From Escherichia coli (GTDB taxonomy: Bacteria; Pseudomonadota; Gammaproteobacteria; Enterobacterales; Enterobacteriaceae): a DNA stretch of 64,000 bases. Both the position numbers and the translations under genes were made by a program. The DNA is taken from assembly GCF_016026235.1 (NCBI RefSeq), contig NZ_CP065613.1; one strand, given 5' to 3'. Below the pieces are notes generated by a model. The model saw nothing but the letters and a program-made list of their open reading frames with translations. It was not told where the DNA came from and searched no databases. Below are positions 30,053 to 59,732 of the stretch, in pieces. Each line of letters opens with the position of its first letter. Within the stretch, counting starts at the first letter, position 1.

Positions 30053-33000
30053 TTAATACAATGTATCCGGTAAACGGAACTGGCTGAACAGACCGCCGGT
30101 GAACGGGTTATCTTCGGTATCCACATGCACCCGGTAAACCATCGCGCCGCCGTCCACGTTAAAGCGCACGTTAAAGGTGTCACTGGTTACGTTGGTCAAC
30201 TGGCCCGCGCCGAACAGGCGGAACTGCGCCCACGGTCCACTGAACGCGATACTGCGCGGTGCTCCGCCGCTGGTGCCAATCAGCGTCAGCTTGCTTTCAT
30301 TGCCTTCACGCATGTTGTTCGGCCAGACCAGATGGGCGGTATAGTTGCGTCCCTGGCTGTAGTCCACTAACTGGCCGTCCAGGTTAAGTACGCTGCGCCG
30401 CTTATTGCCGGAAAGCGATACGGTTTCCACGGCAAACTGTGCGCCCAGTCCGTTCTGCTGGCTAAAGAAGATGTCGCGGATTTTCTGTGCGGTATCCAGT
30501 TGTTGCCGGATATCTTCACGGATCAGCACTCTGCCGTCGTCGCCAAAGGTCAGATCGTTTTCCAGGAACAGTCGCAGGTTGTCCCTGTAGAACGAGTCCA
30601 GAATGCCATCCGGTTTAAAGAAGCGCTCAAACGCATCCAGTGAGGCATCCTGTGGGGCGCGTGGATTAAACGGATAGTTACCGGCAAGCTGTTCGTTGAA
30701 GGGTTTCACCACATTGTCGCGCCAGTCCACTTCCATGTAATGAACGGCTTCCACCATCACTACATGCCAGGCCTGATCCGCCAGCTTGCCCACCCAGCGG
30801 TTAAGAGGCGCAGGCAGGGTTTTTGCCATCTGACGGGTGGCGAAGATTGGATCGCTGCTGTTTTGATCCAGCCGTAGCTGTACTGCTTTCAGCGCCGATT
30901 TCCCAGACACTGGCGAGTTCTGAATCGCCAGCAGGTAACGGTGCAGCTCGGTCAGTTGCTGGTACACGGCCTGTAGCGTACTCGCCTTGTCCTTTTGCTC
31001 CTCCAGTGCGCTATTTTCCGGCGCGAGCTCATGTCCCAGCCGGGATAACAGGCGGTAATCCATCTCATTTATCGCCGCTTCCCTCGCCTTATCATCCAGT
31101 TTGCCGGAGAGCGTCAGCGCGTGTGTATTATCGCGCAGCGCCGTCAGCGCACGCTGGAATGGCTGATCGCCGCTGATAATCTGCTCCAGCGCGTCGGTCA
31201 GCACCGGCATGGCCTCATAGTCACGGACGTTGAGATTATCCATTCCGGCACGCCATGTAGCGGTATAGTCACTGAGGTACTGTTCAGTGATATGGCGCTG
31301 GATCTCTTCACGGTCGGCCTCGCTGTAGGCGACGCTTTGCGTCAGGTTCAGCACCCACGAATCCAGCGCGGTCAACTCAACGAGACCGTCGTGTTGTTTG
31401 ATAAAATAGCTTTGCAGGCCATAGCGGGTGAGAAACTGCGGGATCACCAGTTTTTCATCATTACCGGCGACGAACACGTTGTCGAAGGTGGGACCAACCT
31501 GGTCGCGCAAATTCAAATCGGCGGGCAACACGCTTAATGCTTTGGTGCGCAGGGTCTGGTAGACACGCTGGTATATCGGCAGTTTGCTCAGTTCATGTTG
31601 CGCATTAATGACCGCTTTATCATAGGGTGTCCAGCGGCTGATGGCGTCGCTGTCGCCGCTCTGGCGCTGCGCGTGCCAGTCGGTGTGTTCCAGCGCATAG
31701 TCCAGATGTGCCATCAGTTGCGCCTGAATATCACGCTGGCCGTGAAATTCATTGCTCCAGCGCCGCGCCATGTACTGTTTTACCGCCTCGTTGTTGCGCC
31801 CACTTTTGTCTTCCATCATGCGCACTACGCGCAGCACGGCGAGTTTTTCTTCACTCTCAGGCGGGGCATTGTTCAGATCCCGGATCAGGCCGTTCATTAA
31901 CGAGGGGAGATAACGCTGCTCAAGAAGCTGAATGTAGGTTTGTTCCACATATGACCCTACGCGGACGCCCTGGTACAATCCCATATCCGCCAGAAAACCG
32001 TGATCGCGGTAATCGCCGTAGGCGAGGGTGGCATCGCGTACCGGGTTGAGTAACGGCAGTTGCAGATTGCCGAATTCATCCTTTCCCTGCGGTGGTGGTA
32101 CGTCCATAAAGGCTTTAGCCTGTGCCAGTACGTTAACGCCGGACTGCCAGTTCTGGTTGTAATAATGGTGCCAGCTTCCGACCAGCAATGCCGCCAGTGC
32201 CGCGCCACAGGCGGAAAAGGCGGTCAGCCTGCGCCGGGAGCTGTTCAGCCAGACGCTGTTTTCACCTGCAAGGTTTGGCTCGGCCAGCAGGACTTCCGGG
32301 AAGAGGCGGCGGGTGAAATACGGCGTTGTTTCCACCAGGGGCCAGGTCGCCAGCGAGCTGTTGCCCAGCCCGTACTGGCGGGCGGCGGACTGCGTGAAAA
32401 TATCATCCACCTGGCCGCGCTGTAGCGAGGATGTGAGCCAGACGCCGCGCAGCATCACATCCATATTCTCGCCGTCCAGCAATGCGGCGAGCAGTGAAGT
32501 GACGATTTCTCCCGTTCCCTGCATCTGACGGGAGAAACTGAACACGGCGCTGCGTAGCGCAGCACCGGTCTGCACGAGCATCAGGTCTGACAGCGCCAGG
32601 TTCATCTGTTGCCCCCACGTCTGCCAGAACGCACTCAGCTCACTGCGCCAGTCATCGTTTTCATGGGCGCGGCGGGTAAATGTGACGCCGAGGATCGCAT
32701 CGCGGCCTTTTTTATCCAGCGAATGGAAAAGTGCGGCAAAGCCAGTCAGCAGATCCAGCCGGGTCAGCACCACATAAACGGGCAACCGGCAGTGCAGGCA
32801 CTGGCGGATCTCCTGGAGTTGCTGACGCAGATTTTGTACCAGTGCTTCGCGGCGGGGTTTATCCGCCGTCAGCAGATCGGGAAGATCGAGCGTCAGGATC
32901 AGACCGTTGAGCGGCTGGCGTGCGCGTGTTTGCATTAGCCAGCCCAGCCAGTGTTCGCGCAGGCGGCGGTGGAGCAGATCATCCCCGCCGGGGGAGGTCA

Positions 33001-33599: not shown

Positions 33600-35042
33600 T
33601 TACTGTTCTGCCGTGAGTTTTTGTTCCAGTGCTTTCAGCAGGGAAGGCTCCCATTCGGGTAGCATCATGTGTAAGCCTGTTTTGAAGAGCATCCGGTACT
33701 GCTGTTGTGCAAGCTGAACCATACCGGCTTCTTCCAGTAACTGCGCGCCGAAAAATTGGCGATGAAACTGGTTACGGGGATCACCTTCGGGCAGGTTTTC
33801 CAGATACCGCAGCGCGGTTTCCAGCCCGTTCTCATCGAAGCACGCCCTGGCCGCCTGTAATTCTTCATCGGTCTGTACAGCTGCTGCGGTTTGGTTGCCT
33901 GAGCCCGATGGTGCCAGCCACTGTTTCGTCTGTTCGGACACAAACGGAGTGCGGTCGTTAAACAACAGGTTGATCAGTGCGGGCAGGCGGGCCAGAAACC
34001 CGGTAACTTCATCACGAATAGCATCCGCCACCTGTTTATAACCGAGGCGCAACGCGGTCTGTGCTGAGAGGTAATGGCCGTCCAGCCAGTACGGGGCCAG
34101 CAGCAGGCTTTTTTCCACCTGCTGCCATAGCGCCATGTCGGCATTGTTCAGCCGCGCCAGGTAATCATCCATCATATCGACAGGGAAGGCTGCCAGTGGG
34201 GTCCGTCCATCGCTTTCTGCCTGCGGAGTACTGGTGATGGTCTGCCACAGCGCATGGCGGCGCAGTCGGTAACCCTGCGGTGACTCCGGCTGGCGCTCAC
34301 AGAGAATGGCTGCCACCTTCAGCAGGGTGTCGCGCCATGCTTTATCGTCGTGGCTGTCAACAGTGACTTGCGGGATTGGAGTGGCTGCAGCAGGAGGCTG
34401 AGCGGCAACCGTGTGCGGTGACATATCCGGTACAGATCCGGTCGTGGCCTGCGGCGCACTGGCGGCGGTTCGTGCCGATGATGGCATTTCAGGCGCGACA
34501 TCACGAAACGCGCGCTGAAACAGGGCAAATAAATCGTCTGTCGCCTTAGCCAGCTCAGGCGCGTTGTGCGCCTGCCAGCACTGTGCCAGTTTTGCCAGCT
34601 CTCCCAGCAAAGCATCGCGCTGTGTTGTCGCAGCATTCCCGGCAAAGTCCTGAACGGCAGACTCAAAGCGTTTTATCACCTGGGCGGCAAAGCGTTTTTT
34701 GTGGGCCATGTTCTGCGGTGCGGCGCATGTCCAGTAGTGCTCTGTATATTGTGCCAGCATCCTGGAGGCCAGCAGAATATCACCGGCATGTTGCAGGGTA
34801 CGCAGCAGGTGGGCCAGCAGGCGAAAATCTTTGGTTTCTGAGGCCAGAAGCATCAGGCCCCGGCGCTGAAGTTCGGGGATATCAAGCTGGCTGTGCGCCA
34901 GTGAGCCTAGCTTGACGATTTCGCTGTCGATAAACTCCCAGTCTGCATTACCATCATCAAGCGCGGCGGACAGCTTATCTTCCGGCAGGTTTTCCAGCAG
35001 GTGTGCAAGCCATACATCAGGATTACGTAAGTCCATTGCCAT
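33600..35042 (-). CDS. tssA: T6SS TssA (ImpA/VasJ)
   Basis: About 480 aa from MAMDLRNPDVW; ImpA_N-like N-terminus; position between vasI-like gene and tssM. Confidence 0.75.
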   Translation of the reverse strand: MAMDLRNPDVWLAHLLENLPEDKLSAALDDGNADWEFIDSEIVKLGSLAHSQLDIPELQRRGLMLLASETKDFRLLAHLLRTLQHAGDILLASRMLAQYTEHYWTCAAPQNMAHKKRFAAQVIKRFESAVQDFAGNAATTQRDALLGELAKLAQCWQAHNAPELAKATDDLFALFQRAFRDVAPEMPSSARTAASAPQATTGSVPDMSPHTVAAQPPAAATPIPQVTVDSHDDKAWRDTLLKVAAILCERQPESPQGYRLRRHALWQTITSTPQAESDGRTPLAAFPVDMMDDYLARLNNADMALWQQVEKSLLLAPYWLDGHYLSAQTALRLGYKQVADAIRDEVTGFLARLPALINLLFNDRTPFVSEQTKQWLAPSGSGNQTAAAVQTDEELQAARACFDENGLETALRYLENLPEGDPRNQFHRQFFGAQLLEEAGMVQLAQQQYRMLFKTGLHMMLPEWEPSLLKALEQKLTAEQ

Positions 35043-35046
35043 ATTC

Positions 35047-35790
35047 TTATTCTCCCGCCCAGTGGCAGGCGTCGCGTAGCGGCGCAATAACCCGTGCCAG
35101 CCCGTCAATGTTAAAGGTCAGCTTTCCGGCGGCGTTGTCTGCGCCGGTATCCACCGTCAGCGTTTTTGCGCCGAACAGTTGCTTAATTTCATCAATCCCG
35201 GATAACCCCCTGCTGGACTCCAGCAGGGTGCCGTTCTCGCGCACAAACCAGTGGCTGCGCAGTGCCCGTGTGTCGGCATTCAGGGTGACGGCGATATCGT
35301 GGACATCCAGAGGGTGCATCAGCGCCACCTGCATCCGGGTAATATTGTCCACGCAACTGAACATCAGCACCGGGCGTGGCGGAACATGGCCGATAGCCGG
35401 GGTGGTTATCACCACCGTCGGGCGTTCCCCCGGCACCTGCGTCACCAGCAGCTCCGTGGTGTTGCCCTGGCGGCGTTTTTCCTGCTCTGTGGCGCGGGTC
35501 CAGGCTTCGCCCACAAAGCTGGCTTTGACCAGTGCGGCGTTGCCGAAGCCGGGCTGTTCCGGCGCAAGAATGCGGTCATAACAGTCAAGCCGCTCCAGCG
35601 CCGCAGACTCCCGCCGACAGGACTGCATGGCCTGTAACGTAGCTGTCGCATCCGGCGGGGTCGTGGTGGCGACGGCGACCGCCACACCGGCCATTGACGA
35701 TGTTTCTGCGGGCGCGGCACTGGCCGGTAAGCCCGCCATCAGGCCCGCGATAAACCATCCTGTCTGCCGGAAAACGCGCAACCTGCTCAT
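35047..35790 (-). CDS. T6SS-associated VasI-like secreted protein
   Basis: 247 aa with N-terminal signal peptide (FIAGLMAGLPASAAPA); between clpV and tssA as vasI is in the V. cholerae cluster. Confidence 0.5.
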   Translation of the reverse strand: MSRLRVFRQTGWFIAGLMAGLPASAAPAETSSMAGVAVAVATTTPPDATATLQAMQSCRRESAALERLDCYDRILAPEQPGFGNAALVKASFVGEAWTRATEQEKRRQGNTTELLVTQVPGERPTVVITTPAIGHVPPRPVLMFSCVDNITRMQVALMHPLDVHDIAVTLNADTRALRSHWFVRENGTLLESSRGLSGIDEIKQLFGAKTLTVDTGADNAAGKLTFNIDGLARVIAPLRDACHWAGE

Positions 35791-51615: not shown

Positions 51616-52405
51616 TAATACTAGTGGGACTTCACAACCCGAGTCGCAAGTATGTGTAGTACCGCAAAAAATTACAAATAAATTTAAAATAATGATGAGT
51701 AAGGCTTGTAAAGCACAGAAAATGGTTTTATTGAAAAGAGCAGATGATATTATGTCATGGGAGGGGGAACAACAACGAGATTTTATTAAAGTTTTTGGCC
51801 TTAAAGGCGAGGACATTATAAAAATCAGAAAGGTTGGGGAAGATACTGGGAAACGAATGCAAGCGAGACTATTCATAATGGATGGCATCAGACGAATAAT
51901 GACGATTGCAAATGGTTTGACGATCGAAAGCTATAAAGATTATACGAACTGCAATGAATTTGCTGCTTTTATTAGTCCACATCTTGATCCTCCTTACATT
52001 GTAAATATCGGAGCGCATTTTGAATACAGACATGGTATAAAACAGTCGGTTACAGGTAGAGACTCTCATGTAAGTACACTTTGCCATGAAATGTCCCATA
52101 TATTTTGGTATTGGGGTGACAATCAAAAAGGTGGTATGTGGACTCAGGATTATACGGGTATTAATAAGTTCGCAACAAGTAATAAGGATGAAGTTAGCTA
52201 TGAGAAACATGTTTCAGTGGCTAATGATCTGGTTACATTGCGTAAAGATCAGTTATTTGAGAATGCATATAATGTTGAAAGATATTTTTATATAAAATTA
52301 AATGATGAAGATATTGAAGCTCAAGATGAGAATATGTTAGCAAAAAAAGTAGAGGATAAAATAAAAGAGATAGAAAAATGTTTTGATGAGTTGATGGGGA
52401 AATAA
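51602..52405 (+). CDS. VgrG-coupled HExxH protein, candidate zinc-metallopeptidase effector
   Basis: ATG 51602 overlaps the vgrG stop by 14 nt; 267 aa; HExxH in hydrophobic context (TLCHEMSHIFWYW) followed by WTQDYTG; low-GC cassette. Confidence 0.55.
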   Translation: MAGNNNTSGTSQPESQVCVVPQKITNKFKIMMSKACKAQKMVLLKRADDIMSWEGEQQRDFIKVFGLKGEDIIKIRKVGEDTGKRMQARLFIMDGIRRIMTIANGLTIESYKDYTNCNEFAAFISPHLDPPYIVNIGAHFEYRHGIKQSVTGRDSHVSTLCHEMSHIFWYWGDNQKGGMWTQDYTGINKFATSNKDEVSYEKHVSVANDLVTLRKDQLFENAYNVERYFYIKLNDEDIEAQDENMLAKKVEDKIKEIEKCFDELMGK

Positions 52406-52468
52406 GATGAAGAGGTTGGCTTTCTATAATCTAAATTATGTTGTACTGATGGTTTTTTTCTTTGTTTT

Positions 52469-53155
52469 TTGCCATTATCTATTGCAATTGCAATAGATAA
52501 TGAGAATCTTTTTGTAAAAAAATACAGATTCGGTTTTGAACGAAGAAGTGACAATGGGAAACCAATTATTTATCTTAGCCATAATTTAGCGCCAGAGGAA
52601 AATATAAGTAATGAATTAACAAATGATGTTGTTGTTAAATTGGTGGTTAAGCCACATGCTGAAAATATTTTAGCTACTATAACTTTTTATAACAGTAGTA
52701 CTAAATCGTATTTTCTCCCCAGAATATATTATCCAAAGAACTTCCAAAAAGGAAATGGAGATGTATTTGATGCTTTGTGTGATGACGAATTCTTGATTAC
52801 ATCAGGAAATATTAGCTTAGACTATCTAGGAGGCTTTTGTCCCTTTGAGCTTGATTTGAATTTGAGCCGATGGGTGGAAATTACGGCAGGTAAAAAAATA
52901 TCTTTTGATGTAAAATTGAATGATATGCATTCATTTCTCCCCAGTTTAAATAATTATCATATAAAAACATTAAACTACAAACTTGTTAGGAGAAAATGGT
53001 TTGTATTAAAATCAATTAATGAAACATTCCTCTCTATTTTGATGAAAAGATACTCATGTAATGAATATGATTTTAGAGCTATATCATTTAGTGGAGAGGG
53101 ATGTGATAATTATGAATTTGATAAAAATACGTTTTTTTTGTTAATCAAATATTAG
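52469..53155 (+). CDS. hypothetical protein, candidate cognate immunity/partner of the HExxH protein
   Basis: 228 aa ORF (TTG start in ORF track) directly downstream in a very AT-rich cassette; an upstream ATG at 52407 encodes a hydrophobic leader in a different frame. Confidence 0.4.
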   Translation: MPLSIAIAIDNENLFVKKYRFGFERRSDNGKPIIYLSHNLAPEENISNELTNDVVVKLVVKPHAENILATITFYNSSTKSYFLPRIYYPKNFQKGNGDVFDALCDDEFLITSGNISLDYLGGFCPFELDLNLSRWVEITAGKKISFDVKLNDMHSFLPSLNNYHIKTLNYKLVRRKWFVLKSINETFLSILMKRYSCNEYDFRAISFSGEGCDNYEFDKNTFFLLIKY

Positions 53156-53329: not shown

Positions 53330-53732
53330 TTTATCGACGATAAACCTACCGCCAGAACCGGTGATGCCATTGACTGCGGTGGCGTGGTTAAAGGTGGCGG
53401 GCGATGTGGTGCTGGAGAGCAGCAGCCGGATAAGCCTGAAGGTGGGCGGTTCGTTTGTGGTCATCCATTCAGGGGGCGTGGACATCGTCGGGCCGAAAAT
53501 CAATCTCAATAGCGGCGGTAGTCCGGGAACGCCGGTGCCGACGCTGCAACCGGCGGTTCTGAAAGCGCTGGCAGATGATAAAAGTTTAGCGGCTGAGCAA
53601 AATGATAGTAATGCATCGTCCGATCAGAATGATAACAACGATGAGGGTGAGGAAGCGCCAGAAAAATCGGTGTGTAAGGAGTGCCTGAAAAGGGCGCAAG
53701 AAGCCGCCGCCGTTTTTGCGCCTCGTGGATAA
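53330..53732 (+). pseudogene. orphan vgrG 3' remnant
   Basis: 53394..53576 is a diverged repeat of vgrG 51109..51281 (...LESSSRISLKVGGSF(V/I)VI..GGVDI.GPKINLN.GGS.GTPV...) with a different C-terminal tail; no N-terminal vgrG body. Confidence 0.75.
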
Positions 53733-53738
53733 GGGAGA

Positions 53739-54509
53739 ATGACAATGATAACAGTATCGCCACACGCTACCGATCAAGACAAATATATTATCTGGCTGAA
53801 GCAAGCTGAATCATTCTGTTCTGCCGCTGGTTTGGATTACATAGATGTGCTTGTTGACCAGGCTGGAACCGACCAACCTTTGCAAAATGATATGCTTCAT
53901 CTGTGGCCAGCCATTCACTGGTATGCCCTGTTTGAAGGAACGCCTGAAGCTGAGACGATGGAGTATTCCCCTGTAGTGTTACGCCTGTACTTTGCGCTCA
54001 GTAGCCATCGCAAATTTCTGGCACAACTGATGGCGTCATTTGCTGATACGCCGCGTCTTACTTTGTTGATATCCCCTCTTACATTCGACCTGCTGGGGCG
54101 GCATCTTCAGGTATTGTCACAGGTTCAGTGGGAAGAACAGACCGGATTGCTGCGTTACTATGATAATCGGGTGTTCCCTTTACTGTTCACACATGTTTTG
54201 ACTAACGAGCAGCAGGCGACATTTACTGATATTGCGTTGTTCTGGAGCTGGTTAGACCGTGATGGTGAGATTAACTGGAAATCAGGAAGTTTTTCACCAG
54301 AACGCAGGCTTACTGACAACCCGGAGATGAATCGGGTGGATGATGTACAGGTGGGATTGATGGGCTGTATCTGCGACGCTGAAGTCCTGATGAAGGAGAA
54401 AGCAGTCAGTGAACTCAGTCAGGAAAGCTATTTTGCCCACTGTCTTGATATTGCTTTCAGAGCCAATGACGCGAAATATTTCGGAGCTTTGCGGGACTTC
54501 GAAGGATAA
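53739..54509 (+). CDS. putative T6SS effector adaptor (DUF4123/Tap-like by position and size)
   Basis: 256 aa ORF immediately after the vgrG remnant and upstream of the effector module; family assignment not verified. Confidence 0.4.
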   Translation: MTMITVSPHATDQDKYIIWLKQAESFCSAAGLDYIDVLVDQAGTDQPLQNDMLHLWPAIHWYALFEGTPEAETMEYSPVVLRLYFALSSHRKFLAQLMASFADTPRLTLLISPLTFDLLGRHLQVLSQVQWEEQTGLLRYYDNRVFPLLFTHVLTNEQQATFTDIALFWSWLDRDGEINWKSGSFSPERRLTDNPEMNRVDDVQVGLMGCICDAEVLMKEKAVSELSQESYFAHCLDIAFRANDAKYFGALRDFEG

Positions 54510-54822
54510 TATTGTGGTGATGTACGGGGAGATTTATCTGTTTAAAAGTCCGTAGCTGTTAATATCAAGAGATAATCGTGAAATAAACGGAAAATCAAGC
54601 TCGACATGTAATGGTAGTATCCATCATGTTGCATTTGTGTTCGATCGTAATGTCAGTTCACTTGGCTGCAATATATTTTGCGTAATATCATCAATGCTCT
54701 GTCGATATTCCAATGTGTGACAATCGAAAGATATGCATTTTATTTGCTTCTTTGTCAAAACTTTATTGTCGTAGAAACAATACCCATCAATTAAAATCTC
54801 TCAAAGTAAAAGAACCAGCAAC

Positions 54823-55377
54823 ATGTCCAGCAAAATAAGGAAAAGTATCAGTATGAGAGCGATTTTCAAATGTTATTCTCTAATGATTTTATTTGCAGTA
54901 TCAGGCTGTTCAATGGCAAAAAATAGCGGTGATTACACTGCTGTGGATATTAATGGGATAAATCATACGGATAAGGATATAAATTATATACACATCAATG
55001 GTTACGGCGGACCAAATATTGGCCCATTCGGAGACGGTGGAAGATATTGTTGCGTTATGCTGCCAGATAAGTGGCATTCTGGATTAAAAGCCCGAGTTGA
55101 GTGGGAGGTTGATCCAAATACAGCTCCTCTGCCTCCAGGCTATAAGGACAGGGAGAAATTTGAAGCATGGAAGAAAGTTGCGCTAAACAGTTTTAGAAAA
55201 TATTCAACAATTGTTGATATCCCGGAATATGATGCTGAGCTTTGTGGCCTGACCGTTCATTTTCTAACGTGTAATCAGATAAAAGTGACAACCGTCTGCC
55301 AGAAATATGGTACACCAAATTATCCTATCAAAGAACCCCGCGAGATGAAGGAACCAGCAACATGTCCAGCAAAATAA
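54823..55377 (+). CDS. lipoprotein, candidate Tle-family immunity protein (paralog 1)
   Basis: 184 aa with lipobox (FAVSGC); about 60% identical to the next ORF; conserved C-terminus ...IKEPREMKEPATCPAK. Confidence 0.6.
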   Translation: MSSKIRKSISMRAIFKCYSLMILFAVSGCSMAKNSGDYTAVDINGINHTDKDINYIHINGYGGPNIGPFGDGGRYCCVMLPDKWHSGLKARVEWEVDPNTAPLPPGYKDREKFEAWKKVALNSFRKYSTIVDIPEYDAELCGLTVHFLTCNQIKVTTVCQKYGTPNYPIKEPREMKEPATCPAK

Positions 55378-55904
55378 GAAATGGAATGAATATAACAAAA
55401 GTAGTTAAAGGCTGTCTGGTATTAATTTTGATGGTGATTTCGGGTTGCTCAGCAGCTAATTACGACGATTATACTGCAGGTGATCTCCGGGCAATAAATC
55501 ATATTAAAGGTATCAGTATTAATTGGTTCACCGTAAATGGTTATCGGGTCCATGGTTTGGGCGGTGGATATTGCTGCATAATGTTACCAGAGAAGTGGCA
55601 TTCTGGATTAAAAGCCCGGATCGAGTGGGAAGTAGACCCGAACCCCCTTGAACCTATTGCAATGAAAAAAGAAGGTTTTGGCTATGAAGAAGATGCTTAT
55701 GCTAAACATGCTGCAAATTATCAAAAATATAAAGTAATTGTTGATATCCCGGAATACGGCGCTGAACGTTGTGGCCTGACCGTTCATTTTCTGCCGTGTA
55801 ATCAGATTAAAGTGACAACCGTCTGCGAGGGCTATGGCACACCGAATTATCCTATCAAAGAACCCCGCGAGATGAAGGAACCTGCAACATGTCCAGCAAA
55901 ATAA
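55362..55904 (+). CDS. lipoprotein, candidate Tle-family immunity protein (paralog 2)
   Basis: 180 aa with lipobox (MVISGC); start overlaps stop of paralog 1 within the repeated motif ACATGTCCAGCAAAATAAG. Confidence 0.6.
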   Translation: MSSKIRNGMNITKVVKGCLVLILMVISGCSAANYDDYTAGDLRAINHIKGISINWFTVNGYRVHGLGGGYCCIMLPEKWHSGLKARIEWEVDPNPLEPIAMKKEGFGYEEDAYAKHAANYQKYKVIVDIPEYGAERCGLTVHFLPCNQIKVTTVCEGYGTPNYPIKEPREMKEPATCPAK

Positions 55905-57982
55905 GTGGTCTGGCTTTTCCGTGTTATGCCCCCCCGGTGTTCCCTGAAGATGGGCGATTAATATTATCTGAAGTGCAGGTAAACGCGAACTACCTAAAAC
56001 AAATCAATAAAACAGAGGAGCACAAAACCAACTGTAGTAAACAGGCTGGATTTAGAATTGGCTTTACGTGTAATCAAAGTCTGCATATTAGTCTGTTTTT
56101 TGATGGTACAAATAATAATGAATATAATGACACAAAAGTCTCTCATCCAACCAATATTGCGAAATTATTCCACACAAGTATCGAAGACCGTAATGCTGGG
56201 TATTTTTCCTATTACATACCTGGTGTAGGCACACCATTTCCCAAGATAGGTGAAATGGATTACAGCAACAGCGGACTGGAATTTGCCACCGGTGGTGAAG
56301 ACAGGATTAATTGGGCATTATTACGCCTCGTGGATGCTCTTAGCTATGCTATTGACCCTACCCAAAATGGGCTGAATGAGAAGGTGGCAAAAGAGCACAT
56401 TCCTGTCATGCGAGCTCACTGGCCGATGACTGGTGAAGTGAATCGTCGCAATGTGATTAACCCCTACCTGGAAAAATTACAGGGGCAGTTAGAACAAGCC
56501 AGTCCGCGCCTGCTAAACGTAAAGCTATTTATCTACGGATTTTCCCGTGGCGCAGCGGAAGCGCGAACCTTTGTTAACTGGTTGACTCAGTTAGCTTGCC
56601 CGCAGAGGCAACAGGTGATGCTGGCCGGTTTAGCTGTCAGTATTGAGTTTTTGGGGCTGCTGGATACCGTAGCTTCTGTGGGGGCGGCGCATGTTTTGCC
56701 GGGCGCTGCCGGTCATATGGGATGGGCCGATAGTACTCAGCAACTCCCTGATGAGCGGCACTTTCCCGGCCTGATTAAATGCTGTCGTCACTTCGTTGCC
56801 GCGCATGAGCAGCGGCTGTGCTTCCCGCTGGATTCAATCCGTCGTCCTGAAGGCAATTATCCTTTATATGCAGAGGAAGTGATCTATCCGGGGATGCACT
56901 CTGATGTCGGTGGTGGCTATCCCGTTTGCGATCAGGGGAAGTCCTGTGGAGGTCCAGATGAAATTCTCTCTCAAATTGCTCTGCATGATATGTATCTTGC
57001 GGCGTTTGATGAGGGCTCTCCATTATCAGTGCATCCTTTATTCATAACCAAAATGATAAAAGATATTTCACCATCAAGAGCTATGTCTGATTCATCAATT
57101 GCTGAATTTGTCATCGCTCCAATGTTGATTAAACGCTTCAACATCTGGCGTCAAGCGCTGCTGAACACCACCTTGCAGGGTACAGAAGAAATGATTGATA
57201 CGAGGGAAGGTTATCACTCCTATCAACTTGCCCAGGTTCTTGAAAGCGCAATTAGCGATCAGATCGGCTGGATCACCGCCTGGCGTATCGGTCGCTATGC
57301 GAATAACAGCCTTCTTGTGCAACCTTTTTATATTAAGGCGCCACAGCTGGATAAAGATGGACTTGATAAAGAGGCTAAAGCGCGTAAAGAACAAATGGAA
57401 AATATTGAAAAAGAACAGGCGAACAAGCAGAAAGGGAATGGCACACTTGATGAAAGTAATCAGGGCATTCCTATCCTTGACCCAACCAATGCTCAGTATC
57501 AGTTGCGAGAGGCAGCCCGAGAATTTCAGAGCGATTATAAAGGATGGACGCGCGATATTAACGGCAGCGTCATGGAGAAAGCCATTCAGATTCTTGTGGA
57601 TGTCATTCCTAAATATCCGGTGTATCTGATTAATGGCGATGATGAAGCAAAAGAATATCAGCAAATTAAGGCTATGGGAGACGGACTCTATCCACAATTT
57701 TTTATTGATTCACTGGGAACGGGAACGCGTACTCAGCCATGCGCTGAATTACTGGCTCTCTATGATGACCAGGTTCACGACTCCCGCGCCTGGTTTATGC
57801 AAAGTTCGCTGGGTGGACGCGAACCCTGGGGCGGTTATTTTCGCTACCGCATGATTTACTTCGGTGATGAGGCTAATAAAGAGCTGAAGCTAATCTCTGC
57901 AGATGGCAAAGTTGTTGGCGATCAGCCCACATCCAACCGGGTCATTTATTGGATGGAATCGAAAACGGTGAGCCGAGGTTAA
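55889..57982 (+). CDS. DUF2235-type alpha/beta-hydrolase, Tle1-family phospholipase effector candidate
   Basis: 697 aa; N-terminal FFDGTNNN motif and GxSxG lipase motif (GFSRG); start overlaps stop of lipoprotein paralog 2 by the same junction motif. Confidence 0.7.
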   Translation: MSSKISGLAFPCYAPPVFPEDGRLILSEVQVNANYLKQINKTEEHKTNCSKQAGFRIGFTCNQSLHISLFFDGTNNNEYNDTKVSHPTNIAKLFHTSIEDRNAGYFSYYIPGVGTPFPKIGEMDYSNSGLEFATGGEDRINWALLRLVDALSYAIDPTQNGLNEKVAKEHIPVMRAHWPMTGEVNRRNVINPYLEKLQGQLEQASPRLLNVKLFIYGFSRGAAEARTFVNWLTQLACPQRQQVMLAGLAVSIEFLGLLDTVASVGAAHVLPGAAGHMGWADSTQQLPDERHFPGLIKCCRHFVAAHEQRLCFPLDSIRRPEGNYPLYAEEVIYPGMHSDVGGGYPVCDQGKSCGGPDEILSQIALHDMYLAAFDEGSPLSVHPLFITKMIKDISPSRAMSDSSIAEFVIAPMLIKRFNIWRQALLNTTLQGTEEMIDTREGYHSYQLAQVLESAISDQIGWITAWRIGRYANNSLLVQPFYIKAPQLDKDGLDKEAKARKEQMENIEKEQANKQKGNGTLDESNQGIPILDPTNAQYQLREAAREFQSDYKGWTRDINGSVMEKAIQILVDVIPKYPVYLINGDDEAKEYQQIKAMGDGLYPQFFIDSLGTGTRTQPCAELLALYDDQVHDSRAWFMQSSLGGREPWGGYFRYRMIYFGDEANKELKLISADGKVVGDQPTSNRVIYWMESKTVSRG

Positions 57983-58238
57983 GTTCATAAGATTGAGGGG
58001 TTGGTGACCGGGAAAATGTAGACATGTAGTGCCTAATCACCCCAGTTCAAACCCATCCGCATCCCGCCATGCCGGAAACTTCACACTGTACTCCCAGGGA
58101 AAAATCACGTAATGCTGCTTTTTTTGTACTAAATAATTCGCATTTTATGTTCAATAATTGAGGTGTTCCTTATTACCTAAAGCTGTTTTTCATTGCTTAT
58201 ACATGATCAAATACTCATTGCATAATTAAGGGGGCAAA

Positions 58239-59065
58239 ATGGAACTTAAAAAATTGATGGAACATATTTCTATTATCCCCGATTACAGGCAAGCCTGGAA
58301 AGTGGAACATAAATTGCAGATATTCTATCTGTTAACTATTTGCGCCGTTATTTCTGGTGCATAATGCTGGGAAGATATAGAGGATTTGGGGAAACACAAC
58401 CCGATTTTTTGAAGTGATATGGTGATTTTGAAAATGGTATTCCTGTTCACGATATCATTGCCAGAGTTGTATCCTGTATCAGTCCTGAAAAATTTCATGA
58501 GTGCTTTATTAACTGGATGCGTGACTGTCATTCTTCAGATGATAAAGACGTCATTACAATTGATGGAAAAACGCTCCGGCACTCTTATGATAAAAGTCGT
58601 CACAAGGGAGCAATTTATGTCATTAAAATCCGTCTTCATATTGTTTGCATGTCTCTGATGAATTTATTGATTTTACGTTTGAATGGAAAGGGCTGAAGAA
58701 ATTATGCATGGCAGTCTCATTTCGCTCAATAATAGCAGAACAAAAGAAAAATCCCGAAATGACGGTCAGATATTATAGCATTTCTGCTGATTTAACCGCA
58801 GAGAAGTTCGCCACAGCGAACCGAAATCACTGGCAAGTGGAGAATAAATTGCACTGGCATCTGGACGTGGTAATGAATAAAGACGACTTTATAATAAGAA
58901 GATGAAATGCAACAGAATTATTTTCAGGGATACGGAACATCGCTATTAATATTTCAAAGAAAGATAAGATACTCAAGGCCGGGGCAAGATGTAAGATGTG
59001 AAAGCAGCTGCGGACAGAGACTACCTCGCGTCAGTCCTTTCGGGGGCGGGCTTTCGTAATCTTGC
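58239..59065 (+). pseudogene. yafF: H-repeat-associated (ISAs1-family) transposase remnant, yafF-like, multiply frameshifted
   Basis: [26 protein letters not shown]... then stops and frame changes; fragments in ORFs 58419..58658 and 58645..58905 and a C-terminal tail near 58920..59060. Confidence 0.6.
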
Positions 59066-59228
59066 TCTGCAAGGGATGATAAAAAGTGCAACTTTATTCC
59101 ACGCAGCTATTTAGACAGCGTACAGTAAACAAACGAAAGTTGTTATTTCAATGGTCAGGGCAAGAGCATGAAGTGTTTACTACACACTATGCTCTTGTAC
59201 TGGAGTCAGGTCTTGTTTGGAGGGATAA

Positions 59229-59732
59229 ATGGTAGATATTGTCGAGGCCGATAAAACGGATATTTATTTCATTCAGGAGAGTGTTTATGGCAAAATCGGG
59301 TTGCCAGCTTTTGGTAATACAATAGGACCATCCGCACAGCAAGTTGTTAAAAAGGTATTCGCTGTCGTTAAAGAACGAGATAAGACACATGCAAAACAGA
59401 GATTATTGTTGGAATATAATGGTAACAAACTCTGGATGAATGCTATTGATGGCAGTGAAGCTATCCTACCAACAGAATTTTCTAAGCGATACGAACTTTC
59501 ATTATTCAATACTACTAATTTTGGAGAAGATCCTTTTCCTGATGTTAATTTATATAATAATATGAAATCAAGTTTTTTTGTAAGGTTTGGTGGAACATCC
59601 CATCCCGAGGCTTGGGCTATTTATAATGCAAGTACGAAAGAGGTTAAATATATAGAAACTGCAAGAGAAATTGATAAAATATTCAGTGATTTTAACTTGA
59701 GTGGTACATTGCCAATTCACATTGGTCAATGA
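59229..59732 (+). CDS. hypothetical protein
   Basis: 167 aa ORF in low-GC DNA; no recognisable motif. Confidence 0.35.
   Translation: MVDIVEADKTDIYFIQESVYGKIGLPAFGNTIGPSAQQVVKKVFAVVKERDKTHAKQRLLLEYNGNKLWMNAIDGSEAILPTEFSKRYELSLFNTTNFGEDPFPDVNLYNNMKSSFFVRFGGTSHPEAWAIYNASTKEVKYIETAREIDKIFSDFNLSGTLPIHIGQ

What the first reader, a model, noticed from the sequence alone, without database searches (positions are those of the whole stretch)
55889..57982. DUF2235-type phospholipase (Tle1-family) effector candidate
The 697-aa protein carries the N-terminal FFDGTNNN motif and a GxSxG nucleophile elbow (GFSRG), both characteristic of DUF2235 alpha/beta-hydrolases that include T6SS Tle1 phospholipases. 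It lies in a vgrG-remnant, adaptor, lipoprotein, effector arrangement. Unusually, the lipoprotein immunity candidates are upstream of the effector rather than downstream.
Basis: partly seen in the sequence, partly recalled or inferred. Interest (0 to 1): 0.55.

Follow-up and report, generated by a model that had tools for sequence, protein, structure and literature searches.

The report
Known Tle1 lipase toxin module, orphaned
This is an ordinary, already annotated E. coli copy of the Tle1 phospholipase toxin that type VI secretion systems inject into rival bacteria; its helper and two protective lipoprotein genes sit in the usual order for this subfamily, but it has been cut off from its own delivery spike.

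Summary
The ORF at 55889-57982 is real (697 aa) and is a clear Tle1-family T6SS phospholipase. It matches Pfam PF09994 and PF22137. Its sequence matches the solved P. aeruginosa Tle1 (4O5P) at E 1.9e-116, and the predicted fold matches at TM 0.70. The Ser219-Asp259-His337 triad is invariant in 117 homologues.

Upstream lie a Tla1 (DUF4123) adaptor and two Tli1a-family (DUF3304) lipoproteins. This is the published order in P. aeruginosa (vgrG4a-tla1-tli1b-tli1a-tle1), K. pneumoniae and V. cholerae Aux5. An identical gene is annotated in RefSeq (E. coli FDAARGOS_943, WP_038341297.1).

What is specific here is decay. A low-GC vgrG-M35 peptidase cassette has displaced the module, leaving only the last ~115 codons of its own vgrG. 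That vgrG tail occurs once per genome in related strains. The E. coli tle1 ends at a TAA where its closest relatives encode Glu. tssF in this window carries a 1-nt frameshift. Three of eight related loci have a frameshifted tle1.

The best reading is a known toxin/immunity module, probably no longer fired and kept at least for immunity. Interest is low.

The parts
55889..57982 (+). tle1: 697-aa Tle1-family (DUF2235) phospholipase effector of the P. aeruginosa Tle1 type. Predicted catalytic triad Ser219 (GFSRG), Asp259, His337.
   Evidence: ORF. Pfam PF09994 + PF22137. 4O5P E 1.9e-116, with the triad aligned to EAEC Tle1 S197/D245/H310. Motif positions. Triad invariant in 117 homologues. AF2 model pLDDT 80, Foldseek 4O5P TM 0.70. 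100% identical to the annotated gene in FDAARGOS_943.
57983..58036 (+). Decayed former 3' end of tle1. Read in frame it gives VHKIEGLVTGKM*TCSA*, homologous to the EVHKVQDLVTGxTQTLSxNT tail of the closest relatives.
   Evidence: In-frame translation past the stop compared with the alignment of relatives. The stop TAA sits where relatives have Glu.
55362..55904 (+). tli1 copy B: 180-aa DUF3304 lipoprotein, Tli1a family (lipobox ISGC, Cys29, Ser at +2). Overlaps the tle1 start by 16 nt. Immunity candidate.
   Evidence: NCBIfam NF053804 at 201.8 bits, cut-off 110. Pfam PF11745 at 2.3e-24. Lipobox read from the sequence.
54823..55377 (+). tli1 copy A: 184-aa DUF3304 lipoprotein, Tli1a family (lipobox VSGC, Cys29). 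Only 61% identical to copy B.
   Evidence: NCBIfam NF053804 at 207.7 bits. BLASTP of A against B gives 61% identity.
54803..54838 (+). Relic of the last 12 codons (KVKEPATCPAK*) of a third, lost tli1 copy. It includes the repeated junction that carries the next gene's ATG.
   Evidence: tblastn. Junction repeat AAGGAACCNGCAACATGTCCAGCAAAATAAG at 54809, 55348 and 55875. Related strains carry three copies.
53739..54509 (+). tla1: DUF4123 adaptor/chaperone for Tle1.
   Evidence: NCBIfam equivalog NF053803 'toxin Tle1 chaperone Tla1' at 218.3 bits, cut-off 200. Annotated as a DUF4123/tla1 gene in relatives.
53386..53732 (+). 3' remnant (about the last 115 codons) of the module's own vgrG, including the C-terminal tail ...EKSVCKECLKRAQEAAAVFAPRG.
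   Evidence: 96.9% identical in DNA to the 3' end of the intact 743-aa vgrG of FDAARGOS_144, but only 79.7% over 177 nt to the window's own vgrG. Annotated as a vgrG pseudogene missing its N-terminus in relatives.
49216..51615 (+). Intact vgrG (799 aa) with a different C-terminus: an acidic linker plus an extra ~75-residue domain. It belongs to the inserted M35 cassette, not to Tle1.
   Evidence: NCBIfam TIGR03361 at 595 bits. Tail alignment.
51602..53155 (+). Displacing cassette: an M35-like metallopeptidase effector candidate (51602-52405) and a 228-aa hypothetical gene (52469-53155, possible immunity). GC is 0.29-0.34.
   Evidence: RefSeq names it 'M35 family metalloendopeptidase' in relatives. 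The Pfam PF14521 match is only weak, 0.0022. GC values.

Best explanation
The ORF is a P. aeruginosa-type Tle1 effector: an alpha/beta-hydrolase phospholipase with a Ser219-Asp259-His337 triad and a helical C-terminal module. In this family the DUF4123 adaptor Tla1 loads the effector onto the short C-terminal tail of a dedicated VgrG spike. The T6SS fires it into the periplasm of neighbouring Gram-negative cells, where it degrades membrane phospholipids. The outer-membrane DUF3304 lipoproteins (Tli1) encoded just upstream neutralise it in sister cells.

Shown here: family membership, an intact triad, the adaptor, two lipoprotein immunity genes, and the canonical gene order.

Inferred from characterised homologues: phospholipase A activity, periplasmic site of action, Tla1/VgrG-tail loading, and immunity by Tli1.

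In this genome the module is an older cassette pushed downstream by a newer low-GC vgrG-M35 cassette. Only the 3' end of its own vgrG survives. The tle1 3' end is eroded by a nonsense codon, and tssF is frameshifted. The toxin is therefore probably not being delivered at present. The likely current value of the module is the Tli1 immunity against E. coli strains that still fire this Tle1.
For: Identity:
- Pfam PF09994 and PF22137.
- 4O5P at E 1.9e-116 over residues 11-677; 9J3F at 3.6e-51.
- AF2 model with pLDDT 80.4 and pTM 0.87; Foldseek gives 4O5P at E 2.5e-43 and TM 0.70.
- Triad and FFDGTxNN invariant in 117 homologues.

Partners:
- Tla1 equivalog and two Tli1a-family hits, all above the curated cut-offs.
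- DUF3304.
- Lipoboxes with Cys29.

Mechanism in homologues:
- PMC13133936: Tle1 is bactericidal in the periplasm; Tli1a is an outer-membrane lipoprotein that binds Tle1; Tla1 and Tle1 bind the last ~20 residues of VgrG4a.
- PMC5649205: K. pneumoniae Tle1 is secreted by the T6SS and neutralised by the upstream Tli1.

T6SS context:
- TssB/C, Hcp, VgrG, TssM, ClpV, TssK/L/J/A and others.

Displacement and decay:
- Remnant is 96.9% identical to the intact cognate vgrG of another strain.
- The cassette has GC 0.29-0.34 against 0.47 for tle1.
- The cognate tail DNA occurs exactly once per genome in 67 of 5426 E. coli genomes, and only as the pseudogene in the remnant-type strains.
- tssF carries a +1 insertion at 43892.
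- tle1 is frameshifted in 3 of 8 related loci, and the sister strain carries IS insertions.
- Nonsense-truncated 3' end.

The gene is not yet decayed:
- dN/dS is 0.28 against a divergent allele.
Against: - No enzymatic, secretion or immunity test is possible here.
- NCBIfam has no model that names the effector itself (0 hits).
- The claim that it is not delivered is indirect. A VgrG with a compatible but divergent tail (below megablast sensitivity) could exist outside the window.
- VgrG heterotrimers or tail-independent loading are not excluded.
- The tssF insertion could be a sequencing error.
- tle1, tla1 and both tli1 genes are all intact in this window, which fits continued use as well as recent orphaning.
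Confidence: 0.8

Rival explanations
1. The module is still a working weapon in this strain. Tla1-Tle1 would be loaded on another spike: a second vgrG elsewhere in the genome, a mixed VgrG trimer, or the M35-type VgrG. The T6SS fires normally, and the tssF change is a sequencing error.
For: All four genes (tla1, two tli1, tle1) are intact. The catalytic residues are conserved. dN/dS is 0.28. The other T6SS core genes score as full length.
Against: The window's intact VgrG has an unrelated tail. In related complete genomes the cognate tail exists only once, as the pseudogene. In P. aeruginosa the last ~20 VgrG residues are needed for both the Tla1 and the Tle1 interaction. The tssF insertion is not in a homopolymer. 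Three of eight related loci carry a frameshifted tle1, and the sister strain carries IS insertions.
Confidence: 0.15
2. It is an EAEC-type Tle1, which binds the transthyretin-like domain of VgrG directly without an adaptor and is neutralised by a downstream DUF2931 lipoprotein.
For: It has the same Pfam catalytic family and an aligned triad. The window's intact VgrG carries an extra C-terminal domain.
Against: Similarity to EAEC Tle1 (6SJL/6SKI) is only E 4e-7 with TM 0.22, against 1.9e-116 and TM 0.70 for P. aeruginosa Tle1. The neighbours are a DUF4123 adaptor and DUF3304 immunity genes upstream, not DUF2931 downstream. No lipoprotein gene follows tle1; an ISAs1 relic does.
Confidence: 0.03
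3. It is a DUF2235 alpha/beta-hydrolase with a housekeeping or non-T6SS role, for example an anti-phage or metabolic lipase.
For: DUF2235 domains also occur outside T6SS loci (general knowledge).
Against: It sits inside a T6SS-1 island between tRNA-Asp and yafV, with a Tla1 equivalog and Tli1a immunity genes. It carries the Tle1-specific C-terminal domain PF22137. There are no PADLOC defence hits.
Confidence: 0.02

Closest known systems
Pseudomonas aeruginosa Tle1 (PA3290; PDB 4O5P) with Tla1 (PA3293), Tli1b/Tli1a (PA3292/PA3291) and VgrG4a (PA3294)
   Same: Same two-domain protein: E 1.9e-116, Foldseek TM 0.70, identical GFSRG elbow and aligned Asp/His. Same gene order: vgrG, DUF4123 adaptor, two DUF3304 lipoproteins, effector. 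The VgrG tail is of the same style, a short extension after the gp5 prism.
   Different: The E. coli protein is 697 aa against 882. It aligns only to about residue 708 of the PDB chain, so roughly the last 175 residues of the P. aeruginosa membrane-anchoring module have no counterpart. Its own vgrG is reduced to a 3' stub. Both tli1 copies look intact here, whereas PAO1 tli1b is proposed to be a pseudogene.
Klebsiella pneumoniae HS11286 Tle1KP / Tli1KP
   Same: An enterobacterial DUF2235 effector with a tandem array of immunity genes upstream. T6SS-dependent secretion and Tli1-mediated protection were shown experimentally.
   Different: It has four nearly identical (94%) tli1 copies, against two copies that are 61% identical here. 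A Klebsiella homologue in the search is about 48% identical and 781 aa.
Vibrio cholerae Aux5 TleV1 / TliV1a, TliV1b
   Same: Order hcp-vgrG-tap(DUF4123), then two DUF3304 genes upstream of a DUF2235 effector with nothing downstream. Only the gene directly upstream protects.
   Different: TleV1 is very distant (19% identity to P. aeruginosa Tle1) and is reported to lack the GxSxG motif. Here GFSRG is intact.
Enteroaggregative E. coli Tle1 (EC042; PDB 6SJL/6SKI) / Tli1
   Same: Same species and same kind of T6SS-1 locus. Same Pfam catalytic family. The triad S197/D245/H310 aligns with S219/D259/H337.
   Different: A different subfamily: E 4e-7, TM 0.22. It has no adaptor and binds the VgrG transthyretin-like domain directly, and its immunity gene is a DUF2931 lipoprotein encoded downstream.
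Sequential displacement of T6SS effector modules (V. cholerae; PMC5361080)
   Same: A new effector cassette recombines into vgrG and shifts the older module downstream. The older immunity genes are retained. Here the result is a vgrG 3' stub plus the old module behind a low-GC cassette.
   Different: In V. cholerae the old effector is usually lost and only the immunity genes stay. Here the adaptor and the effector are also still intact.

Membership tests
Tle1 family of T6SS phospholipase effectors (DUF2235) | DUF2235 / Tle1-like catalytic alpha/beta-hydrolase domain (PF09994) | tested here: met
   Two pieces of PF09994, residues 68-236 and 249-369, at E 9.2e-8 and 1.9e-13. Foldseek top hit is 4O5P at TM 0.70.
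Tle1 family of T6SS phospholipase effectors (DUF2235) | GxSxG nucleophile elbow and Ser-Asp-His triad | tested here: met
   GFSRG at 217-221. S219, D259 and H337 align with EAEC Tle1 S197, D245 and H310 and with identical motifs in 4O5P. They are invariant in 117 homologues.
Tle1 family of T6SS phospholipase effectors (DUF2235) | Tle1-like C-terminal (membrane-anchoring) domain, PF22137 | tested here: met
   E 1.7e-57, but only model positions 1-265 of 353 are covered. The protein is the shortest of 117 homologues, and 107 of them have 50-79 more residues.
Tle1 family of T6SS phospholipase effectors (DUF2235) | Genetic linkage to vgrG / a T6SS cluster | tested here: met
   It lies at the end of a T6SS-1 island with TssA, B, C, F, J, K, L, M, ClpV, Hcp and VgrG.
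Tle1 family of T6SS phospholipase effectors (DUF2235) | Adjacent periplasm-facing lipoprotein immunity gene (Tli1, DUF3304) | tested here: met
   Two Tli1a-family hits at 202 and 208 bits against a cut-off of 110. PF11745 at 2.3e-24. Lipoboxes with Cys29.
Tle1 family of T6SS phospholipase effectors (DUF2235) | Phospholipase A activity, periplasmic toxicity, T6SS-dependent export, neutralisation by Tli1 | not testable with these tools
   Known only for homologues (PMC13133936, PMC5649205).
P. aeruginosa-type Tle1 delivery module (VgrG tail + Tla1 + Tle1) | DUF4123 adaptor Tla1 encoded between vgrG and the immunity genes | tested here: met
   NF053803 equivalog at 218.3 bits against a cut-off of 200.
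P. aeruginosa-type Tle1 delivery module (VgrG tail + Tla1 + Tle1) | Intact cognate VgrG whose C-terminal tail recruits Tla1 and Tle1 | tested here: not met
   Only the last ~115 codons remain (53386-53732). The intact 799-aa VgrG has a different tail. The cognate tail DNA occurs once per genome in related strains.
EAEC-type Tle1 / Tli1 (DUF2931) / VgrG-TTR | Close similarity to Tle1 of EAEC 042 and a downstream DUF2931 lipoprotein, with no adaptor | tested here: not met
   E 4e-7 and TM 0.22 to 6SJL/6SKI. The immunity genes are DUF3304 and upstream, and an adaptor is present. An ISAs1 relic lies downstream.

The most novel reading that the evidence does not exclude
The orphaned module is not inert. 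Either Tla1-Tle1 is still loaded by a non-cognate route (a mixed VgrG trimer, the M35-type VgrG, or even a translated stand-alone VgrG tail peptide from the 123-codon GTG ORF at 53361-53732), or the E. coli-specific loss of the C-terminal segment has changed how the lipase targets membranes. That would make this a natural example of effector re-use after displacement.
Probability: 0.07. Interest if true: 0.4.

Novelty: already known. Interest (0 to 1): 0.14.

Why it matters
As a discovery it matters little. The family, its structure, its adaptor, its immunity proteins and this exact gene order are published, and the identical protein is already named in RefSeq. It has modest value as a worked example of T6SS arsenal turnover in E. 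coli. An older Tle1 module has been pushed behind a newly acquired vgrG-M35 cassette and has lost its spike. Across sister strains it shows a graded series of decay: frameshifts, IS insertions, loss of the immunity array, and breakage of tssF or tssC. In this strain the effector, the adaptor and two divergent immunity genes are still intact. This fits the idea that immunity genes outlive the weapons they came with.

Tried and rejected
- A first AlphaFold run on a 14-sequence alignment gave an unusable model (pLDDT 42). It was replaced by a 117-sequence run (pLDDT 80).
- NCBIfam has no model that hits the effector itself, so naming rests on Pfam, PDB and fold evidence.
- PADLOC gave no hits for any gene of the module, so an anti-phage reading was dropped.
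- The promoter/terminator scan was uninformative: 17 promoter-like sites against 11 expected, and one weak terminator inside the vgrG stub. No operon claim is made from it.
- I looked for a one-to-one match between the two Tle1 variable-patch alleles and the Tli1 types across nine loci. The pattern is mosaic and inconclusive.
- I considered that tle1 was truncated by the ISAs1 element downstream. This was rejected because the stop is a point nonsense codon, the old reading frame continues for about 17 codons, and the IS relic begins about 250 nt later.
- I did not map the published P. aeruginosa interface residues (R37, R47, K61) onto the E. coli protein, because the PDB chain numbering offset is uncertain.
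Full report
**1. Observation**

The ORF at 55889-57982 (+) is open from ATG to TAA and encodes 697 aa. FFDGTNNN lies at residues 70-77 and GFSRG at 217-221. These motifs are not chance matches:
- Pfam reports the Tle1-like C-terminal domain PF22137 (E 1.7e-57) and the Tle1-like catalytic domain PF09994 in two pieces (1.9e-13 and 9.2e-8).
- A sequence search of the PDB finds P. aeruginosa Tle1 (4O5P) at E 1.9e-116 over residues 11-677, phospholipase 9J3F at 3.6e-51, and the enteroaggregative E. coli Tle1 (6SJL) only at 4e-7.
- In that output the query Ser219, Asp259 and His337 align with S197, D245 and H310 of the EAEC enzyme, which is its published catalytic triad (bioRxiv 10.1101/2024.03.05.583533). 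They also align with identical GFSRG, DTVA and HSDVGGGY motifs in 4O5P.
- In an alignment of 117 homologues, S219, D259, H337 and F70/F71/D72/G73/T74/N76/N77 are invariant.
- An AlphaFold model built on that alignment (pLDDT 80.4, pTM 0.87) has 4O5P as its best PDB match (E 2.5e-43, TM 0.70). 9J3F 'phospholipase TleB' follows at TM 0.60, and EAEC Tle1 reaches only TM 0.22.

**2. Surroundings**

The gene lies at the right-hand end of a T6SS-1 island between tRNA-Asp (26826-26902) and yafV/ivy/fadE. The island encodes TssA, TssM, VasI, ClpV, TssL, TssK, TssJ, TagH, TssF, TssC, TssB, Hcp and VgrG.

Directly upstream of tle1, in order, are:
- A 3' stub of vgrG (53386-53732).
- A DUF4123 protein that passes NCBI's equivalog model 'toxin Tle1 chaperone Tla1' (218 bits, cut-off 200).
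- Two lipoproteins that pass the 'Tli1a family immunity protein' model (208 and 202 bits, cut-off 110). Copy B matches DUF3304 at 2.3e-24.

Both lipoproteins have a lipobox with Cys29 and Ser at +2. By the E. coli sorting rule (general knowledge) this predicts outer-membrane lipoproteins, as was shown for P. aeruginosa Tli1a. The two copies are only 61% identical.

A 31-nt junction that carries the end of one tli1 and the ATG of the next gene is repeated at 54809, 55348 and 55875. This explains why TliA, TliB and Tle1 all begin MSSKI. The last 12 codons of a lost third copy survive at 54803-54838. Related strains carry one to three copies.

**3. Is the order unusual?**

No. Upstream tandem DUF3304 immunity genes are the published norm for this Tle1 subfamily:
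- K. pneumoniae HS11286 has four tli1 genes upstream of tle1, and the upstream Tli1 protects against T6SS delivery (PMC5649205).
- V. cholerae Aux5 has two DUF3304 genes upstream of a DUF2235 effector and nothing downstream (PMC6691524).

This protein is only distantly related to that subfamily.

**4. Already annotated**

The gene is 100% identical in DNA to a CDS of E. coli FDAARGOS_943 (WP_038341297.1, 'T6SS phospholipase effector Tle1-like catalytic domain-containing protein'). About 70 of 5426 complete E. coli genomes carry a tle1 of this type. The 90%-identity protein cluster has 662 members. Newer RefSeq annotations already label the neighbours tla1 and tli1a. DUF4123/DUF2235 modules behind vgrG genes of E. 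coli T6SS-1 have also been noted in the literature (PMC10711316).

**5. Mechanism**

These steps are inferred from characterised homologues:
- Tla1 binds the catalytic domain of Tle1.
- Both dock on the last ~20 residues of the cognate VgrG.
- The T6SS delivers the complex.
- In the prey periplasm the membrane-associated enzyme is bactericidal.
- Outer-membrane Tli1a binds Tle1 without occluding the pocket.

Only the parts list and the conserved catalytic residues are shown here.

**6. What is particular to this locus**

(a) The module is displaced.
- The stub at 53386-53732, together with the sequence through the start of tla1, is 96.9% identical to the 3' end of the intact 743-aa vgrG that directly precedes tla1 in strain FDAARGOS_144.
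- The window's own intact 799-aa VgrG shares only 79.7% over 177 nt with the stub and ends in an unrelated acidic linker plus an extra domain.
- Between them sits an M35-like peptidase gene and a 228-aa ORF with GC 0.29-0.34, against 0.47 for tle1 and 0.57 for vgrG.
- This is the 'sequential displacement' pattern described for V. cholerae (PMC5361080).
- The cognate tail DNA occurs once per genome in 67 of 5426 genomes. In the remnant-type strains that single copy is the pseudogene. In those relatives no intact spike carries the matching tail.

(b) The 3' end of tle1 is eroded.
- The stop TAA sits where the closest relatives (Kluyvera and Salmonella, 720-728 aa) have Glu.
- The old frame continues as VHKIEGLVTGKM*TCSA*, against EVHKVQDLVTGxTQTLSxNT in the relatives.
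- Of 117 homologues the E. coli form is the shortest, and 107 have 50-79 more residues.
- All nine E. coli copies examined stop at the same codon or, for the three frameshifted copies, span the same alignment extent, so the truncation is fixed in the species.
- dN/dS against a divergent allele is 0.28, so the body of the gene has been under purifying selection.

(c) There are signs of decay around the module.
- tssF carries a one-base insertion (A at 43892, not in a homopolymer) relative to FDAARGOS_943. This cuts TssF at 485 of 613 aa.
- In the sister strain, tssC is split by IS21, IS600 sits between the stub and tla1, and IS1 splits a tli1 copy.
- Three of eight related loci share a 1-nt deletion at nt 41 of tle1. 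One of these has also lost the whole tli1 array.
- One further locus has a damaged tla1.

**7. Conclusion**

The finding is a correct identification of a known kind of gene in its normal arrangement. The single feature offered as unusual is the family norm. The locus-specific story is an orphaned, slightly eroded toxin module in a T6SS that appears to be breaking down, probably retained for its immunity genes. That story is coherent but is also a well-described evolutionary pattern. Interest is low and the novelty class is 'already known'.

Noticed in passing
window 43892 (tssF, 43506-45347, minus strand): There is a single-base insertion (A) relative to the otherwise 99.9% identical tssF of FDAARGOS_943. 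It shifts the frame, and the ORF stops at 485 of about 613 aa. The T6SS-1 baseplate would be inactive unless this is a sequencing error.
   Followed up: partly
window 51602-53155: A low-GC (0.29-0.34) cassette sits behind the intact vgrG. It holds an M35-like metallopeptidase effector candidate (HExxH-type CHEMSH; the Pfam PF14521 match is only 0.0022) and a 228-aa ORF with no family hit, presumably its immunity gene. The immunity ORF differs in length among strains, at 228, 249 and 279 aa.
   Followed up: partly
window 55889-57982, residues ~85-105, 155-170 and 380-417: tle1 exists as at least two E. coli alleles that differ in discrete patches (64-83% nt identity there, against 95-100% elsewhere). 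The 380-417 patch roughly corresponds to the region of P. aeruginosa Tle1 (438-446) that is predicted to contact Tli1a. No simple pairing with Tli1 types was found.
   Followed up: partly
L001 (33F4), L005 (2018-05-2CC), L007 (JX21CE8): nt 41 of tle1: Three remnant-type strains share a 1-nt deletion that stops tle1 at codon 24. In L005 the tli1 array is absent and tle1 starts where tli1 normally starts, consistent with deletion between the repeated MSSKI junctions.
   Followed up: partly
L003 (E. coli FDAARGOS_943): This sister strain has identical tla1, tliB and tle1 but has IS21 in tssC, IS600 between the vgrG stub and tla1, and IS1 in a tli1 copy. This is an independent route to inactivation of the same locus.
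   Followed up: no
window ~58240-59115 and 60025-61266: A degenerate ISAs1-family transposase relic lies downstream of tle1 and is conserved in all related strains. A full IS4-family transposase ORF (NF033591, 360 bits) on the minus strand is absent at this position from the related loci examined.
   Followed up: partly
window 59229-59732: A conserved 167-aa hypothetical ORF (GC 0.35) has no NCBIfam or PADLOC hit. It is present behind the ISAs1 relic in most related strains.
   Followed up: no
window 28684-30183 (minus strand): A second TssA-like ORF (499 aa) scores well below the TssA cut-off (88 bits against 230), next to a bona fide TssA at 33600-35108. This is probably the accessory TssA-related protein of T6SS-1 clusters.
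   Followed up: no
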